A stretch of 64,000 bases of DNA from a plasmid: sequence record NZ_CP088228.1; one strand, 5' to 3'. Of this stretch, positions 6,001 to 21,000 are shown in pieces. Position 1 is the stretch's first letter. Each line of letters starts with the position of its first letter. A program made the position numbers.

Positions 6001-9000
6001 AACCGCCTCGAATCGCAGCACCGGCACGACGCGGCAACGCTTACCGAACGTATGGCTGCGCAGACTCTGCGCCGGATCAACACCCTGCTTCTTGAAGCCT
6101 ACCGCGAAGCCCTGGTGCTGGACGAAACCTTTCAGGACTGACTGACCCTGCCGGGCTGATGCCCGGTCTGTAACCCCTTACAAGAGAGAACAAACGATGT
6201 ACGGAACCCGCGAAGAACTTTGTGTACAGCTTGAAAACATGTTCACGTCTGACGAACCCCTGGTCCTGCTGGTCTGGACGGAAGAGGGGATTAGCGTGGC
6301 CTGCCGTGAAGCCCAGCCAGAACCGGACGGGACTGAAATCCGGAATCTGATGAAGGCGATCGGCGAAATGAAAATGACGCAATACCGCCAGGAGGGGGTA
6401 AATAATCTGACTGTCAGCGATCTCCTGGCCCGTCAGCGGGAAGTGGCAAACCGTCAGGTGAGTGTTCCGGCGGTACTCCTGTCCCGCGTCCTGCGTAACT
6501 ATGAATGCGAGCTGGAAAACCGGATCGGTATGGCCTGGGAAGCCGGGCGGCAGGAGCCTGAATCCGTCAGGAATGAGCTGAAGGACGTTCACGCATTACA
6601 GGAGACGCTGGCCGCGTAAGGGAGAGAGCCGGGGTAACGCCCCGGCAACCGGTGGCCATCCACTGCGAAAAGGATGTCAGTGCCTTCCGCTTTTATCCGC
6701 CGCTGCCCTCCGGGCCACGTCGGGACAATGAAACTCCCCTGAAGCTCCGTGCGGTGACGGCATGCGCCGTGACTTCACTGTAGCCCGGCCGCATCGGCCA
6801 CAAGGGTTCGCTTACGCCTCCGTCCTCACCCGTTCGCACCCTTCACGGTGCATTCAGCCCGTGAAGGCTTTGCGCTGCGGCTTGCGGCGTCGCCCCTGTG
6901 TCCTCCGCTTTTCGCCGGTCTGTCGTGTCGTCACGGCGATGCCGGAACCGAGAATATGTTAACCGTGGAGGATCTATGAACCAGACCGTGACCTGTGATG
7001 CTGTTCGTCTTGAGGGTGCGCAGCGCCTGACTTTCCTGCCTGATTTGTTTGGCGGCGATTTTATGACGTCCGAGGCATCCGTGTACGCCTATGCCCAGCG
7101 TTACTGCCCTGAGTATCAGGGGGGATTCTGGCAGTTTTACCGGCTGCCGGAAGGTGGCGGATATATGGCGCCTGACGTGGAGAGCCTGACCCTGTGCAAA
7201 CCGGACAACTGGTTTGAGCAGACTGTCAGCGGGGAAGTGGCGGGGATCATTCTCACGGCGCTGGTACTGAATCACCGGAGCTGGCACCACAGCAACCATG
7301 ACCATGAAGAGCTGTGCCGCCACTTCTGCCGCCGTTATGAGCAGCTTATGGCATTTGCTGATACCCATCCGGAAAGCGCCACGATCTGGCGTGCCCTTGA
7401 CTGACTGACCACGGGCGGCGATGCCGCCCGACTAAAGGAGAAAAACATGATTGGTACAGCAAAAGAGATCGCCATCGAAATGCTGCGTGATGACGATAAT
7501 GACGGCGAGAAATTTGTATTCGCCAGCTGGAGCCGGAACGATATTCGCGGTCTCTGCATTGACTGGGATCTCAGTGATGAAGAGATCGACGTGGTGATGG
7601 AAAGACTGGAGGCAGAGCTGTATCCCTCCGGATGTGTCCCTCTCATCTACAACATTGTTGAGATGATGGTGGAAGAAAAACGGAAACACCGTAATGTCAC
7701 CATTCCGGCTGCGGCGCTTGCGGTGGTGATGCAGCTTGCAGGGAAGGAAATGGAGCGTATCGCTGTATGCGCGGAGGATGGAGGCGGATCAGCGGCAGAA
7801 ACCCTGAAAGAAGAAAATGACGTCATGTTGAGCCTGCGCGCGGCGCTCGATGCCTGACTGAGAAACCGGAGGCATTGCCTCCGGAAACTGAAAAAAGGAG
7901 AACACCATGCAACTGTCACCGGAAACCCGTAACATCCTGCGCCAGTATAAAACGCTCATCAACGAACGACGTCGCGAATCCGGACTCAGCCCCGTAACCA
8001 CAGCGAAAGTGCTGGATGAGATCTGCGAATCGGCTACCCGCCAGTGCGCCGTCTATCTTTGCGGCCACTTCATTCTCCAGGGCGGACAGGGGGATGGAAA
8101 GTAAATAATCCGGGCGGGGCATAGGCGCCGCCTGTTCGCGCGCGAAAACCCTGTCATCCCTTCGGGCTGACGGACGGTAAGGCCAGCGCCTGCGGCGCCG
8201 CCCCCTCCCGCCCGGATGTAAGCCCGGAGAGATGCAGATGAAAGGCATTGTGAGGGCAAATTGTCACGGATACGGTCCTGCGTGGCGTGGCGTGGCGTGG
8301 CGTGGCGTGGCGTGGCGGCTCTGAAACCCGATCAGCAAATCCTCTGAAAACTCCTGAATCCCACTTCTGGCCCCCTTCGGCTCCCGGCCCGCGTGGCGGT
8401 CCGGTCGTCGAGCCCCACTCCGCCAGGTCGGCTGCTGACGCACCCGCCGGGCTCCGCCGAACCCGCAAGCGGTTTCGGGCTGACGCTAGGGTCTGATGGC
8501 TGAGGTCAACCCCCTGGCTTGCACCGGCCGGAGGCCGGGCCGCCCTGACCGCGCCGGCGGAGCCGTCGCTTTAAGGCCGCCACGCCGTTCCGACGTGTCG
8601 GGTGCGTGCATCCTGTTCATCCGGTGAGGCCATCCCCCGTGCGTCCTCACGCGGAGGGCTGCTTGTAGCACCGTCGTGTCGTCATCCGAAGGGTGAAATG
8701 CACGCCGCCAAAACTTTTTGCGTGCCGCAAAAAGTTTTGTCTGCGCCCTTCTCCTGCCGCCCCGCCGTTGCTCCTTTTGCCCTTTGCCGCGAGAGAACTC
8801 ACCAGGGAGATGGCCAGCCATCACCACAGGAGAAAACCAGGATGCACACACGAAACGTCAACGTCAAAACCGCCGCTCAAGAATCTTCCAGGAAGATGGG
8901 GGAAGAACAAAACCCTGTTTCTGTCGCACGGGAGTGGGTGGCTCAGGCCACTTCGCTGAAGGCGGGGGTCACCGTCACCCTGTCCGATGCGTCCCGATAC

Positions 9001-18000: not shown

Positions 18001-21000
18001 TGCCGCAAAAACTTTAGTCTCCGCCCCTTTCCTTCCGCCCTTCGCCGTTGCTCCTTTGCCCTTTGCCGCGAGAGAACTCACCAGGGAGATGGACAACCAT
18101 CACCACAGGAGAAAACCAGGATGCACACACGAAACGTCAACGTCAAAACCGCCGCTCAAGAATCTACCGGAAGATGTGATTCAAACCTCACCATGTCCCA
18201 GTTCACGGATCTGTTTTGCTGGGTCCTGGCCGCATCGGAAGGGGAGCCACAACCGGCAATTTTTACGCCGCCAGAGAATGCCACTGAGCTGACGTTAATA
18301 AATGACGAATGCCCGGATTATATCTCTGTCTGGTTTGTAGATGGTCGCCCGGTGGCAGCTGCAATGCCGCTGGATAATTTTCATCGCGTTATTTCTTCAT
18401 CTCTTACTAAATAATCAGGAGTAAATAAAAATGGTCAGTTTCGCAAGCCGCTATCGTATGCCTACATCGATCCGCAAAGACCGTCCGCTGACGAATGATG
18501 AATTACAGCGCATCGTTCCGAGCGCGTTCTCATCGGATAAACACGATTCACGCTCTGAACGTTATACGTATATCCCGACCATTAACATTCTTGATCGCTT
18601 ACGTGATGAAGGTTTTCAGCCATATTATGCAACTCAGTCACGTACACGTGACCAGGATAAACGCGACTTTACAAAGCATATGCTTCGCCTGCGCCGTCAT
18701 GACCAGATTAACGGAAAAGAAGTGCCGGAAATTATTCTGCTGAATAGCCATGATGGTTCAAGCAGCTATAAAATGATCCCCGGCATGTTCCGTCAGGTTT
18801 GCAGTAATGGTCTGGTTGCATGGAAGGATTTTGGTGAAATCCGCGTACCCCACAAAGGGGATATTGTCGGGCAGGTTATTGAAGGCGCTTACACGGTGCT
18901 GAAAACATTCGACGCGGTTGATGAAAATATAGACCTCATGAAAAGCATTCAGCTCACTTTGCCTGAGCAGCGCCTTTTGGGTGCGACCGCCCTGGAACTT
19001 AAATACGATGGAAAACCAGCGCCGATTACACCGGAGCAAATTATTAACCCTCGCCGTGTGCTCGACAGAGGCCAGGATTTATGGACCACGTTTAACGTGG
19101 TGCAGGAAAATGTGATCCGTGGGGGAATTCGTGGCAGAACGGAAAAAGGGAAGATGACCAGAACGCGGGAAGTCACCGGAATAGATGGTGACATCAAATT
19201 AAATCAGGTGCTCTGGAAAATGGCGGAGGAGTTTGCAAAACTGAAGGCCTGAAAATTAAGCCGCTCAACAGAGCGGCTTTTTACTGTTCGTTGTTAAGCG
19301 ATGCTGTTTCAGTAGTTTTTATCTCATGCTCCTTACCCGCAACTGGCGCCAGGCGTTCAGAAAGTAACTTTTTTCTGGCCAACAAAACGCGATATATATT
19401 TTTGATATCCTGAGCATACGCCTTGCGCTGCACAATCAGCTTTTTGCTCGGCCCAGTATTATACATCCCCACGCTGTCCCAGTTTTTTCCGTATGACCTG
19501 AAGTTGTGCGCCAGTACCCATGCACCCGTATAAACGCAGATACATGGATCATTCAGCAGGCGCTCACGGGTAATATTGAAGTTTTTAAGTTTACCGTAAT
19601 GAGAGCTGTTTACCTGCATCCCACAGACATCTTCTGTTCCATTCCTGTTAGATCCATTTATCGCACCCGGCTTAAGTCTGCTCTCTTTAATCGAAATTGA
19701 CATAAGCAGCAGTGGATCAATTTGATAATCTTTCCCGGCCTGATCAAAGCACATTTGTGGAGCTGCGCCAGCAGACATGGAAAGGGTCAGCAATGCCGCA
19801 GGTAGTATCGATATTTTCATGGTTTGGCCTTTTAGCGAAATAAACGGGCTCTGGAGAGGCGCTTTAAAAAATACCCCGGCGGATCGTCGTAATCAAGTAA
19901 ATTCACTACAAACGCGCGTGAGCGCTCTCCCGAAGGGATTTAACACCTGTCCGAAATAAACATGCCAGAACGGTAGACGGTATTAACATGCCGCTCTTTA
20001 CTAACCCTTTTAAACATCACACCCCACGCAAGACTTCGTCTTGCAGATTTTTTCTTTTAATTCATATATATACCTGTGCTTATTATGCGGAATTATGCTG
20101 TGTGAACGATAAAGGTGTGTGCATCAGCACACATTGCAGTGCCTGAACCCCACACACTACAGTGCCTAATCAAGCACTGTAGTGTGTGCTAATCCAGCAC
20201 TGCTGAGTGTGGGGATTGTGTGTATTCAATAAATAGAGTAACTTAAAAATGGGTAGTGCCTGATGAACACACATCACAGTGCCTGATGCACACACATGGT
20301 GGTGCCTGATGCACACACATGACAGTGCCGGATTAGCACACATCCAAAAGCCAGATTCACGCAAATCCTCAGTAAGTTACAGAACAACGTAACTCCGGGA
20401 ACTGACATATAAGTAGCATTGCAGTGCCGCATCAGGCACTGCATGAAATTTTTGAGAAAATATCATGCCAAGAAAGAACATCTACTTTAAAGATAAAATT
20501 GACAGAGAAATAAATGATATTCTTGAGATTGAGTTACAAAAGGGCGCAACAACGTCTGACATGAACTATTCTTCAATAGTCAACGAATTAGTTCGACTCG
20601 GACTGATGGTATACAAATCAAAGGAAGAGGGCTCAACTTTCGATCTCGATGGTTTCCGACGCGACCTCATTAAGAAAGTCTCTGGCTCACGTGAAGGTAT
20701 TATGATTCTCACCGCACTTGTCTCTGATATCTTTGTCACGATGAAGGGGCCAGACTCTGGAGTGAAGCTTGAAGAACTGATAAATGCCAACATCAGCTCG
20801 ATTAACGATGCAGAAGATAAGGCTGAAAAAGACCACTTCCTGACGGATTAATTATTGGTTTCAGGCCGGACTTTTCCGGCCCTGTCGATCACTGAGGCTC
20901 ACCCTCATCCCACGGAAGGTCTTCCTTTTCCACCTCCGTGATTTTTTCTTTTAAAAAAACTTCAAATTCCATACACAACACTTTCAGCGCCTGCGCATCC

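What the first reader, a model, noticed from the sequence alone, without database searches (positions are those of the whole stretch)
6197..19252. Dense block of >10 unannotatable small ORFs in the leading region (candidate anti-defence island)
ORFs at 6197-6619, 7447-7857, 7907-8104, 9158-9523, 12797-13123, 13179-13553, 15186-15392, 15470-15931, 16021-16221, 17096-17431 and 18121-18414 are all on the transferred-strand-complementary (+) strand. They are interleaved with known early-entry functions (MTase, KlcA-like, ParB-like, PsiB/PsiA). None matches a family I can name. Leading regions are known hot spots for anti-restriction, anti-CRISPR and anti-SOS genes. ssb and ardA are absent from this leading region, so unknown genes may substitute.
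Basis: inference. Interest (0 to 1): 0.7.

Follow-up and report, generated by a model that had tools for sequence, protein, structure and literature searches.

The report
Plasmid leading-region early-gene cassettes, functions unknown
The small genes are real and conserved, and they sit in the first part of an F-like plasmid to enter a new host, grouped behind repeats resembling promoters that work on single-stranded DNA; this kind of region is already described, and what the small genes do is still unknown.

Summary
All 11 ORFs exist at the stated coordinates on the + strand. They have Shine-Dalgarno sites, evolve under purifying selection (pooled pN/pS 0.28), and occur with identical sequences in public databases.

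The block is the leading region of an IncF-type Enterobacter plasmid, syntenic with F. An F-like nic motif lies on the minus strand at 20017-20027.

The genes lie in six co-directional cassettes, each headed by a repeat.
- Three ~500-nt repeats are homologous to F's Frpo single-strand promoters and fold as long hairpins on the transferred strand.
- Three ~190-nt repeats match the element upstream of F klcA.

Most ORFs remain unassignable. Pfam places one in DUF1380 and gives weak hits to DUF1419 and DUF905. Confident AlphaFold models of 9158-9523 and 17096-17431 match no solved fold.

ssb and ardA are absent from the whole window. ORF 7447-7857 fills the slot where a Klebsiella relative has ardA. 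ORF 9158-9523 is fixed in ssb-less versions of the ParB-like/psiB operon, but its model has no OB fold.

Leading regions as anti-defence islands were published in 2024, so this is already known in kind. The window also has no tra genes beyond traM, so the plasmid probably needs a helper to transfer.

The parts
4038..4225 (-). Class-2-like repeat, copy 1 (putative single-strand promoter), upstream of ORF 4241-4708
   Evidence: Direct repeat family D2/D5. It is 93% identical to copy 2. The hairpin is not significant on its own (z -0.5).
4241..4708 (+).
   Evidence: No Pfam hit; weak phrog_10258 hit. pN/pS 0.19 against L001. No PDB match. No F homologue.
5023..5211 (-). Class-2-like repeat, copy 2, upstream of the methylase cassette
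   Evidence: Hairpin on the minus strand: dG -53.8 kcal/mol, z -3.5.
5231..5923 (+). Orphan N6/N4 DNA methyltransferase
   Evidence: Pfam N6_N4_Mtase, E 2.8e-37. 72% identical to the F leading-region methylase.
5920..6141 (+). 73-aa ORF whose start overlaps the methylase stop
   Evidence: phrog_4830, E 1.2e-22. 53% identical to the F ORF in the same position. pN/pS 0.08.
6197..6619 (+). DUF1380 protein (140 aa, pI 4.7)
   Evidence: Pfam PF07128, E 6e-12, 46.3 bits against a cut-off of 26. phrog_9024. No PDB match.
6766..6954 (-). Class-2-like repeat, copy 3, upstream of klcA
   Evidence: Hairpin: dG -57.2 kcal/mol, z -5.0. An HMM of the three copies hits the region upstream of F klcA, E 3.9e-7.
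6976..7404 (+). KlcA/ArdB-type anti-restriction protein
   Evidence: Pfam Antirestrict, E 6e-25. phrog_10132, annotated as anti-restriction. 49% identical to the F homologue.
7447..7857 (+). Second DUF1380-type protein (136 aa, pI 4.3); fills the slot that holds ardA in a Klebsiella relative
   Evidence: 37% identical to F's second DUF1380 protein, E 2.5e-24. No direct Pfam hit. Slot equivalence shown. No similarity to ArdA.
7907..8104 (+). 65-aa conserved ORF that closes the klcA cassette
   Evidence: 59% identical to the F ORF and 65% to the Klebsiella ORF in the same position. pN/pS 0.06.
8368..8861 (-). Class-1 (Frpo/ssi-like) repeat, copy 1
   Evidence: Minus-strand hairpin 8540-8850: dG -101.8 kcal/mol, z -10.6. 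An HMM hits both F Frpo regions, E 3.8e-16 and 4.6e-13. This is the deepest minimum in the sliding-window fold.
8842..9114 (+). 90-aa DUF905-like ORF; its ATG lies inside the repeat
   Evidence: Pfam DUF905, 22.8 bits against a cut-off of 22.3, partial match. pN/pS 0.19.
9158..9523 (+). 121-aa basic protein, narrow Enterobacterales plasmid family, alpha/beta fold with no known match
9591..11603 (+). ParB-like protein, homologue of F YfjB/HerB
   Evidence: Pfam HTH_ParB and ParB_N. 42% identical to the F protein. Function of the F protein reported in PMC13370423.
11641..12075 (+). PsiB, SOS inhibitor
   Evidence: Pfam PsiB, E 7e-40.
12072..12800 (+). PsiA
   Evidence: Pfam PsiA, E 1.9e-109.
12797..13123 (+). 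108-aa basic ORF whose start overlaps the psiA stop; publicly mislabelled 'theronine dehydrogenase'
   Evidence: phrog_27524, E 6e-20. More than 221 clusters across Enterobacterales. pN/pS 0.14-0.22.
13179..13553 (+). 124-aa hydrophobic protein with three or four predicted membrane spans
   Evidence: GRAVY 0.75. Hydropathy segments. pN/pS 0.40-0.57.
13612..13942 (+). hok/sok type I toxin-antitoxin locus (sok RNA model match 13612-13783; hok 13781-13942)
   Evidence: Rfam sok, 97.8 bits. Hok-like 53-aa ORF. Hok annotated in the relative.
14262..14830 (-). Class-1 (Frpo/ssi-like) repeat, copy 2
   Evidence: Hairpin 14510-14820: dG -87.5 kcal/mol, z -7.0.
14811..15125 (+). 104-aa ORF, homologue of the first F gene after the oriT-proximal Frpo
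   Evidence: 67% identical to F 64032-64319. No Pfam or PHROG hit.
15186..15392 (+). 68-aa ORF (public annotation starts at Met17)
   Evidence: 75% identical to a Klebsiella homologue, pN/pS 0.20. No family hit.
15470..15931 (+). 153-aa ORF with a sub-threshold DUF1419 hit
   Evidence: Pfam PF07215, 20 bits against a cut-off of 23. Cluster of 687 members. pN/pS 0.09. No PDB match.
16021..16221 (+). 66-aa ORF with a GTG start
   Evidence: Annotated in relatives. A Klebsiella homologue is 62% identical, pN/pS 0.41.
16262..17053 (+). Second orphan N6 DNA methyltransferase
   Evidence: Pfam N6_Mtase, E 4.9e-8. phrog_5696, E 7e-81.
17096..17431 (+). 111-aa acidic helical protein from a wider family shared with phages
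   Evidence: phrog_3963. 144 representatives in the deep search. Nearly invariant D66, H73, H98 and E102. AF2 pLDDT 90.8. No PDB, BFVD or Pfam match. Relatives in 15 viral contigs.
17570..18139 (-). Class-1 (Frpo/ssi-like) repeat, copy 3
   Evidence: Hairpin 17820-18130: dG -88.9 kcal/mol, z -9.4.
18121..18414 (+). 97-aa acidic ORF; its ATG lies inside the repeat
   Evidence: Cluster of 147 members. pN/pS 0.21. No family or PDB match.
18431..19252 (+). DUF932 protein, the + strand gene nearest oriT
   Evidence: Pfam DUF932, E 7e-48. 64% identical to the F homologue. Terminator-like hairpin at 19258-19279.
19281..19820 (-). Lytic transglycosylase (SLT) gene next to oriT
   Evidence: Pfam SLT, E 6.7e-19.
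20017..20027 (-). F-like nic motif GTGGGGTGTGA; this makes the minus strand the transferred strand
   Evidence: One mismatch to the F nic core as I recall it. It lies between the SLT gene and traM.
20465..20851 (+). traM, the only transfer gene left in the window
   Evidence: 91% identical to TraM of the relative. traA, traL, traE, traK and traB give no hit in the window.

Best explanation
This is the leading region of an F-like (IncFIA/FII lineage) Enterobacter plasmid.

Anatomy. About two dozen co-directional genes, including the 11 flagged ORFs, are packed into six cassettes. Each cassette starts with a repeat that is predicted to fold into a long hairpin on the transferred (minus) strand.
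- Three repeats (8368-8861, 14262-14830, 17570-18139) are homologues of F's Frpo single-strand promoters.
- Three repeats (4038-4225, 5023-5211, 6766-6954) are homologues of the element upstream of F klcA.

Proposed mechanism. When the strand nicked near 20018 enters a recipient, the hairpins mimic duplex promoters. Host RNA polymerase then transcribes each cassette in a burst. Conversion to double-stranded DNA switches the promoters off.

Products. The named products block restriction (KlcA), pre-methylate the plasmid (two orphan methylases), block SOS (PsiB, with PsiA alongside), act on the host chromosome (ParB-like HerB homologue), and kill plasmid-free segregants (hok/sok). The unnamed small proteins are most likely further early-acting establishment effectors, some of them anti-defence.

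Status of each step.
- Shown here: the ORFs are real genes under purifying selection; the synteny; the repeat homology; the predicted hairpins; the absence of ssb and ardA.
- Inferred from F and pESBL experiments: single-strand promoter activity and early expression.
- Inferred from position only: a function for any small ORF. An example is 7447-7857 as an anti-restriction candidate because it fills the ardA slot.
For: - Synteny with annotated IncF plasmids and with F.
- nic-like motif on the minus strand, next to the SLT gene and traM.
- Shine-Dalgarno sites and short or overlapping intergenic gaps.
- Purifying selection on the ORFs.
- Two repeat families confined to the leading region.
- nhmmer hits of the class-1 profile to the regions upstream of F ssb and of F 64032-64319 (E 4.6e-13 and 3.8e-16). 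These are the positions of the two Frpo elements as I read the F maps.
- nhmmer hit of the class-2-like profile upstream of F klcA (E 3.9e-7).
- Hairpins on the transferred strand with z -7.0 to -10.6 and z -3.5 and -5.0.
- A 300-nt sliding-window fold, the method used in PMC12672017, puts its deepest minima on the three class-1 repeats.
- No more consensus duplex promoters than expected by chance.
- Published RNA-seq and 5' RACE show these promoter classes drive early expression in pESBL and F, including the klcA and methylase operons (PMC12672017; bioRxiv 2026.01.09.698686).
- Leading-region enrichment for anti-defence genes is published (PMC11541004).
- GC is 55-64% across the region against 40-55% elsewhere, which matches PMC13478746.
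Against: - No expression data exist for this plasmid.
- The -35 and -10 elements in the hairpins were not identified by a simple scan.
- Repeat copy 4030-4237 folds no better than shuffled sequence.
- DNA similarity to F Frpo is low. Plain blastn finds only 34 nt, and only the profile search is significant.
- The window holds no relaxase, coupling protein or pilus genes. The early programme can therefore run only if a helper plasmid mobilises this one.
- No small ORF has any demonstrated or structure-inferred activity.
Confidence: 0.78

Rival explanations
1. The unknown ORFs are early establishment or host-manipulation factors rather than anti-defence proteins. They might tune host transcription, replication or metabolism, as reported for the F ParB-like protein HerB. 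This overlaps with the best explanation and differs only in what the products do.
For: - HerB/YfjB, whose homologue sits in the same cassette as 8842-9114, 9158-9523 and 12797-13123, is reported to reprogram host transcription rather than to block a defence system (PMC13370423).
- The 9158 family is fixed next to the ParB-like gene in every context seen.
- No ORF resembles any known anti-defence protein in sequence or fold.
Against: - Leading regions are statistically enriched for anti-defence genes (PMC11541004).
- 7447-7857 fills a slot that holds ardA in a relative.
- 17096-17431 follows an orphan methylase, and its family also occurs in phage small-gene clusters.
Confidence: 0.35
2. 7447-7857 and 9158-9523 functionally replace the missing ArdA and SSB. 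The first would be a DNA-mimic-like inhibitor of type I restriction. The second would be a single-strand DNA binder.
For: - ssb and ardA are absent from the whole window.
- 7447-7857 is acidic (pI 4.3). It lies between klcA and the conserved 65-aa ORF, exactly where Klebsiella plasmid CP117214 has ardA.
- 9158-9523 is basic, with invariant aromatic and arginine residues.
- In the window and in the three lineages examined, the 9158 family occurs in ssb-less versions of the Frpo-ParB-psiB operon.
Against: - There is no sequence similarity between 7447-7857 and ArdA.
- F itself carries the DUF1380 paralogue in this slot together with ssb.
- 9158-9523 does not sit in the exact ssb position; it follows the DUF905-like gene.
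- The co-occurrence sample is only four lineages.
Confidence: 0.15
3. The ORFs are decaying relics, because this plasmid has lost its transfer genes and the leading region no longer serves a purpose.
For: - The window appears to cover almost the whole circular plasmid. It has traM but none of traA, traL, traE, traK or traB, and no relaxase-sized ORF.
- IS110-family and Tn3-family elements sit immediately after the traM region.
Against: - All ORFs are intact.
- The ten ORFs looked up have protein sequences that occur exactly in public records, and conjugative relatives carry near-identical copies.
- Substitution patterns show purifying selection.
- The oriT nic motif and traM binding-site repeats are retained, so mobilisation in trans is plausible.
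Confidence: 0.06
4. The ORFs are chance open frames in GC-rich DNA and are not genes.
For: The region is 55-64% GC. It also contains long antisense ORFs that are probably spurious, such as 9750-10745, 12084-13028 and 16817-17554 on the minus strand.
Against: - Shine-Dalgarno sites precede nearly every ORF.
- Pooled pN/pS is 0.28, with an excess of third-position substitutions (p 2e-9).
- Homologues exist down to 50-60% identity with conserved motifs.
- The two proteins modelled gave confident AlphaFold models.
Confidence: 0.02

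Closest known systems
F plasmid leading region (operons driven by Frpo1, Frpo2/ssp1, ssp2 and ssp3)
   Same: Gene order is the same: methylase, 73-aa ORF, DUF1380, klcA, DUF1380, about 63-aa ORF, Frpo, (ssb), DUF905, ParB-like YfjB/HerB, psiB, psiA, hok/sok, Frpo, small ORF, DUF932, SLT, oriT, traM. Protein identities run from 27% to 72%. Repeat profiles hit both F Frpo regions and the region upstream of F klcA.
   Different: - There is no ssb; 9158-9523 is added instead.
- There is an extra Frpo-headed cassette at 14262-17431 holding five small ORFs and a second methylase. 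Only its first ORF has an F counterpart.
- 12797-13123 and 13179-13553 follow psiA.
- 18121-18414 replaces the F small ORF before DUF932.
- The methylase cassette is headed by a klcA-type repeat, not by sequence resembling F's methylase-upstream region.
- There are six promoter-like repeats, against the four single-strand promoters reported for F.
pESBL / ColIb-P9 (IncI1) leading region with six single-strand-promoter operons, classes 1-3 (PMC12672017)
   Same: The logic is the same: six hairpin-headed operons, with class 1 (ssi/Frpo) and class 2 (upstream of klcA and ardA), carrying a methylase, KlcA, PsiB and many unknown ORFs. The promoter search there used the same 300-nt sliding fold that I repeated.
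   Different: That plasmid has a different backbone (IncI1) and carries ardA and ssb. Its promoters were confirmed by RNA-seq and 5' RACE, which is lacking here. I did not compare sequences with pESBL directly.
Leading-region 'anti-defence islands' (Samuel et al., Nature 2024, PMC11541004)
   Same: The island runs from oriT to umuDC (umuD at 701-1132). Its genes are transcribable from the T-strand. It holds anti-restriction genes, SOS inhibitors, orphan methylases, a toxin-antitoxin locus, Frpo-like elements and many uncharacterised families. That paper reports 33% of the top 100 families as uncharacterised.
   Different: Nothing differs in kind. I could not check whether these exact families are in that paper's supplementary tables.
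Klebsiella IncFIB/FII(K) plasmid leading region (CP117214.1)
   Same: Same backbone and the same class-1 repeats (73-81% identical, three copies). It shares 12797-like, 13179-like, 15186-like and 16021-like ORFs, the second methylase and DUF932.
   Different: It carries ardA where the window has 7447-7857, and ssb plus DUF905 where the window has the DUF905-like ORF plus 9158-9523. Other cassettes hold different cargo, including RelE/ParE, HTH proteins, HolE theta and DUF5983.

Membership tests
Plasmid leading-region anti-defence island (Samuel et al. 2024) | Lies next to oriT on the side that enters the recipient first | tested here: met
   An F-like nic motif lies on the minus strand at 20017-20027, with the SLT gene and traM on either side. 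Gene order matches F. The nic consensus is recalled from knowledge of F, not taken from a tool.
Plasmid leading-region anti-defence island (Samuel et al. 2024) | Genes oriented so that the transferred strand is the template | tested here: met
   All genes from 4241 to 19252 are on the + strand, and the T-strand is the minus strand.
Plasmid leading-region anti-defence island (Samuel et al. 2024) | [quoted passage not shown] | tested here: met
   KlcA/ArdB, PsiB, PsiA and two methylases by Pfam.
Plasmid leading-region anti-defence island (Samuel et al. 2024) | Far boundary at umuDC homologues (described as frequent, not obligatory) | tested here: met
   umuD (Peptidase_S24) lies at 701-1132 on the minus strand. 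umuC in the relative spans the window ends.
Plasmid leading-region anti-defence island (Samuel et al. 2024) | The uncharacterised members actually counteract host defence | not testable with these tools
   No sequence or fold similarity to any known anti-defence protein. This needs challenge assays.
Class-1 single-strand promoters (Frpo / ssi) | Sequence homology to F Frpo | tested here: met
   The nhmmer profile of the repeats hits the regions upstream of F ssb (E 4.6e-13) and upstream of F 64032-64319 (E 3.8e-16). Alignment A1 shows conserved blocks. Plain blastn finds only 34 nt.
Class-1 single-strand promoters (Frpo / ssi) | Long imperfect hairpin on the transferred strand, upstream of a leading-region operon | tested here: met
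   dG -101.8, -87.5 and -88.9 kcal/mol, with z -10.6, -7.0 and -9.4. The sliding-window minima fall on these repeats. Each repeat is followed by a co-directional gene set.
Class-1 single-strand promoters (Frpo / ssi) | -35 and -10 boxes rebuilt in the stem | tested here: inconclusive
   The simple consensus scan found none in 8100-8900. No dedicated search on the folded stem was done.
Class-1 single-strand promoters (Frpo / ssi) | Transcription from single-stranded but not double-stranded DNA | not testable with these tools
   Needs in vitro transcription or transconjugant RNA-seq with 5' RACE.
Class-2 single-strand promoters (upstream of klcA and ardA; ssp2 of F) | Homology to the element upstream of F klcA, plus a hairpin | tested here: inconclusive
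   The profile hits upstream of F klcA (E 3.9e-7) and a second F site (E 1.3e-6). Hairpin z is -5.0 and -3.5 for two copies, but -0.5 for the third.
DUF1380 (PF07128) | Score above the Pfam gathering threshold | tested here: met
   6197-6619 scores 46.3 bits against a cut-off of 26.
DUF1380 (PF07128) | Same test for 7447-7857 | tested here: inconclusive
   No Pfam hit at E <= 0.01. However, it is 37% identical (E 2.5e-24) to the F protein that NCBI names DUF1380, and weakly similar to 6197-6619 (E 0.003).
DUF1419 (PF07215) | Score above the Pfam gathering threshold, for 15470-15931 | tested here: not met
   20.0 bits against a cut-off of 23, partial match. Some cluster members are nevertheless named DUF1419 by NCBI.
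DUF905 (PF06006) | Score above the Pfam gathering threshold, for 8842-9114 | tested here: inconclusive
   22.8 bits against a cut-off of 22.3, but only profile positions 32-63 of 70 are matched. Similarity to the F and Klebsiella DUF905 proteins is short.
[quoted passage not shown] | OB-fold barrel or sequence similarity to SSB, for 9158-9523 | tested here: not met
ArdA anti-restriction (DNA mimic) | Sequence similarity to ArdA, for 7447-7857 | tested here: not met
   No ArdA Pfam hit. BLASTP against the Klebsiella ArdA is insignificant. No structure was modelled, so mimicry of the fold was not tested.

The most novel reading that the evidence does not exclude
At least one of the ORFs without an F counterpart or a known fold is a new kind of early-acting anti-defence or establishment effector. 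The best candidates are these:
- 7447-7857, an acidic DUF1380 paralogue in the ardA slot.
- 9158-9523, fixed in ssb-less ParB-psiB cassettes, with an alpha/beta fold that matched no solved structure.
- 17096-17431, a helical family with nearly invariant Asp, His, His and Glu, shared with phages and placed after an orphan methylase.

Separately, the class-1 repeats may be portable expression modules that supply the promoter, the ribosome-binding site, the start codon and a shared 15-residue N-terminus to whatever gene follows.
Probability: 0.3. Interest if true: 0.55.

Novelty: already known. Interest (0 to 1): 0.3.

Why it matters
Leading-region genes decide whether a resistance plasmid survives its first minutes in a new host. 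The unknown small genes are the obvious pool of undiscovered anti-defence and host-takeover proteins. This window adds no new principle, because both the region type and near-identical sequences are already public.

It does give a clean, annotated test set:
- six promoter-like cassettes;
- a short list of conserved unknown ORFs shown here to be real genes;
- two slot swaps against relatives (ardA against a DUF1380 paralogue; ssb against the 9158 family) that say which ORFs to test first and against what.

The plasmid also appears to carry an mcr-like colistin-resistance gene and to have lost its own transfer genes. How well its leading region works when a helper mobilises it therefore has some practical relevance.

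Tried and rejected
- Sequence family searches. Pfam, NCBIfam and PHROGs on the ORFs (NCBIfam on ten of them) gave only DUF labels or unnamed phage families.
- PDB sequence searches. Eight ORFs and two family profiles gave nothing below E 0.04.
- 9158-9523 as an alternative SSB. Rejected for an OB-fold SSB, because the model has no OB fold.
- 7447-7857 as a divergent ArdA. Rejected at the sequence level.
- 4241-4708 as ArdA, on the grounds that it is acidic and follows a class-2-like repeat. There is no Pfam or PDB support.
- Genomic context of the phage relatives of 17096-17431. They lie in clusters of small ORFs. A cytosine methylase lies nearby in only 2 of 15 loci, by my reading of its N-terminal motif, which is too weak to use.
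- Consensus promoter scan for -35 and -10 boxes in the class-1 repeat. It found nothing.
- Rfam scan. It gave only sok, plus a sub-threshold symR hit that I take as chance.
- A covariance model of the hairpins was considered but not built. The three copies are 88-93% identical, so they carry little covariation.

Full report
**What the region is**

Nineteen cover 80% or more of the query. The best are Enterobacter plasmids at 94-99% identity, typed IncFIA/IncFII, MOBF and MPF_F.

The annotated relative CP123379.1 shows this order: umuDC, parM, stability gene, methylase, DUF1380, antirestriction, DUF1380, ParB-like, psiB, psiA, hok, N-6 methylase, DUF932, lytic transglycosylase, traM. The F plasmid has the same order. 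Protein identities to F run from 27% to 72%.

A one-mismatch copy of the F nic core, GTGGGGTGTGA, lies on the minus strand at 20017-20027. It sits between the SLT gene (19281-19820) and traM (20465-20851). The nic consensus is from my knowledge of F, not from a tool. It follows that the minus strand is the transferred strand, DNA below about 20018 enters first, and the + strand genes can be transcribed directly from the incoming strand.

**Are the ORFs real?**

All 11 are at the stated coordinates. Nearly every one has a GGAG-type ribosome-binding site at the right spacing, and gaps between genes are 16-90 nt or 4-nt overlaps.

Against the 94.6%-identical relative, every ORF with synonymous differences has pN/pS below 0.55 (15186-15392 had none). 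The 11 pooled give pS 0.099, pN 0.027 and a ratio of 0.28. Substitutions fall 47/23/87 on codon positions 1/2/3 (p 2e-9). Against a Klebsiella plasmid, the shared ORFs still show ratios of 0.14-0.57.

The ten ORFs looked up occur with exactly these sequences in public data, in clusters of 67-687 members. They are named hypothetical, DUF1380 or DUF1419. Two labels are evident misnomers: 'theronine dehydrogenase' (12797-13123) and 'succinate dehydrogenase flavoprotein subunit' (16021-16221).

Long antisense ORFs in this GC-rich stretch are probably spurious.

Three further small genes lie inside the range (5920-6141, 8842-9114, 14811-15125). One lies just before it (4241-4708).

Two repeat families occur only in this region of the window.

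*Family A* is about 500 nt, with copies 88-93% identical to each other, at 8368-8861, 14262-14830 and 17570-18139.
- A profile of it hits F upstream of ssb (E 4.6e-13) and upstream of the ORF at 64032 (E 3.8e-16). These are the positions of F's two Frpo single-strand promoters, as I read the maps described in the papers.
- On the minus strand each copy folds into a long hairpin: dG -101.8, -87.5 and -88.9 kcal/mol, with z -10.6, -7.0 and -9.4.
- A 300-nt sliding fold, the method used to find such promoters in pESBL, puts its three deepest minima on these repeats.

*Family B* is about 190 nt, at 4038-4225, 5023-5211 and 6766-6954.
- It hits the region upstream of F klcA (E 3.9e-7), where the class-2/ssp2 promoter is described.
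- Two copies fold better than shuffles (z -5.0 and -3.5). The third does not (z -0.5).

Consensus duplex promoters are no more frequent than chance across 3000-20500.

The region therefore reads as six cassettes:
1. 4241-4708.
2. Methylase, 5920-6141 and DUF1380.
3. klcA, 7447-7857 and 7907-8104.
4. 8842-9114, 9158-9523, ParB-like, psiB, psiA, 12797-13123 and 13179-13553, followed by hok/sok.
5. 14811-15125, 15186-15392, 15470-15931, 16021-16221, the second methylase and 17096-17431.
6. 18121-18414 and DUF932.

**How it most likely works**

In F and pESBL, such hairpins are transcribed by host RNA polymerase while the DNA is single-stranded and fall silent after complementary-strand synthesis. 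RNA-seq and 5' RACE confirmed six such operons in pESBL. They also showed induction of the Frpo-driven, klcA and methylase operons in F (PMC12672017; bioRxiv 2026.01.09.698686).

By homology, the cassettes here should fire in the same way. That step is inferred, not shown, and the -35 and -10 boxes were not located.

The named products act on restriction (KlcA, two orphan methylases) and on SOS (PsiB, with PsiA alongside). The ParB-like protein is 42% identical to F YfjB/HerB, which a 2026 preprint reports as a reprogrammer of host transcription. Not everything here need be anti-defence.

**What can be said about the unknown ORFs**

*Family assignment.*
- 6197-6619 is a clear DUF1380 member.
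- 7447-7857 is its distant paralogue through the F homologue.
- 15470-15931 falls below the DUF1419 threshold.
- 8842-9114 is a marginal DUF905 match.
- NCBIfam gave nothing for the ten ORFs scanned, and PHROGs gave only unnamed families for the small ORFs.
- PDB sequence searches gave nothing.

*9158-9523.*
- It belongs to a narrow plasmid family with an invariant VDTRFNDCxNWQV motif.
- In Salmonella and Siccibacter plasmids, its homologues always sit between a DUF905-like ORF and the ParB-like gene, with no ssb.

*17096-17431.*
- It belongs to a wider family of 144 representatives at 50% identity, with no Pfam model.
- The family has nearly invariant D66, H73, H98 and E102, and relatives in 15 viral contigs.
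- Its model is a confident helical bundle (pLDDT 90.8) with no informative match.

*Other ORFs.*
- 13179-13553 is a small membrane protein.
- No paper in the searched library characterises DUF1380, DUF932, DUF905 or DUF1419.

**The missing ssb and ardA**

Neither gene has any match in the window. A Klebsiella relative with the same backbone has klcA, ardA and a 63-aa ORF where the window has klcA, 7447-7857 and a 65-aa ORF. The flanking genes are orthologous; the small ORF is 65% identical. The same relative has ssb and DUF905 before the ParB-like gene, where the window has a DUF905-like ORF and 9158-9523.

It is weak evidence for three reasons:
- F carries both the DUF1380 paralogue and ssb.
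- 7447-7857 shows no similarity to ArdA.
- 9158-9523 has no OB fold in its model.

**Context that limits the mechanism**

The last 1044 nt of the window and its first bases are adjacent in the relative, 293 nt apart. The window therefore seems to cover nearly the whole of a circular plasmid of about 64.3 kb.

It has traM, but none of traA, traL, traE, traK or traB, and no ORF of relaxase size. IS110-family and Tn3-family elements and cargo genes follow the traM region. The early-gene programme can run only if a helper plasmid mobilises this one.

**Verdict**

The interpretation matches what was published in 2024 for leading regions in general, and in 2025-2026 for F and pESBL in particular, so the finding is already known in kind. 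Its remaining value is a vetted list of candidates, plus two slot swaps that suggest which to test first.

Noticed in passing
window 8842-8890, 14811-14860, 18121-18170: The downstream end of each class-1 repeat carries AGGAG, an ATG and about 15 shared codons (M-H/Y-T-R/Q-NVNVKTAAQES). These run in frame into three unrelated ORFs. F has no ATG at the aligned position. Either the repeat supplies the start codon and N-terminus, or the true starts lie downstream (for example Met19 at 8896 and Met25 at 18193).
   Followed up: partly
window 36038-37705 (-) and 38024-39100 (-): A phosphoethanolamine transferase of the EptA/MCR type (Pfam EptA_B_N plus Sulfatase) lies next to a tyrosine recombinase. 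From memory, this looks like an mcr-10-type colistin-resistance module. Only Pfam was run.
   Followed up: partly
window 1-3256 and 62957-64000; whole window: The two ends of the window are adjacent (293 nt apart) in a related plasmid, inside umuC. The window is therefore probably almost a complete circular plasmid of about 64.3 kb. It has a RepE-type initiator (62524-63279) and traM, but no other transfer genes, no relaxase and no coupling protein.
   Followed up: yes
window 21958-22962 (-) and 30854-31858 (+): Two IS110-family transposase genes with identical Pfam scores lie in opposite orientation, on either side of a Tn3-family transposase (23041-26025), a SulP transporter and a universal stress protein gene. 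This segment begins right after the Arc-like gene next to traM, where the tra operon lies in the relative (L001).
   Followed up: partly
window 8284-8313: A (GGCGT)x6 microsatellite lies in the spacer just upstream of the first class-1 repeat.
   Followed up: no
window 12797-13123 and 16021-16221: Public records label these small ORFs 'theronine dehydrogenase' (sic) and 'succinate dehydrogenase flavoprotein subunit'. Nothing in the sequences supports either name, so these look like propagated annotation errors.
   Followed up: partly
window 15186-15392 and 16021-16221: The cluster look-up placed these two unrelated small proteins in the same 90%-identity cluster. This is probably an artefact of the clustering.
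   Followed up: no
L002 (F plasmid) 2664-2833: The class-2-like repeat profile also hits a second site in F (E 1.3e-6), about 1.3 kb upstream of the F leading-region methylase. I have not seen this site described in the papers I read.
   Followed up: no
window 9527-9596 (-): A sub-threshold Rfam match to the SymR antitoxin RNA (29 bits against a gathering score of 61, E 0.074) lies between 9158-9523 and the ParB-like gene. It is probably chance.
   Followed up: no
window 20100-20340: A series of CAGTGCC...CACACA-type inverted and direct repeats lies between the nic motif and traM. This is where TraM binding sites lie in F-like oriT regions.
   Followed up: no
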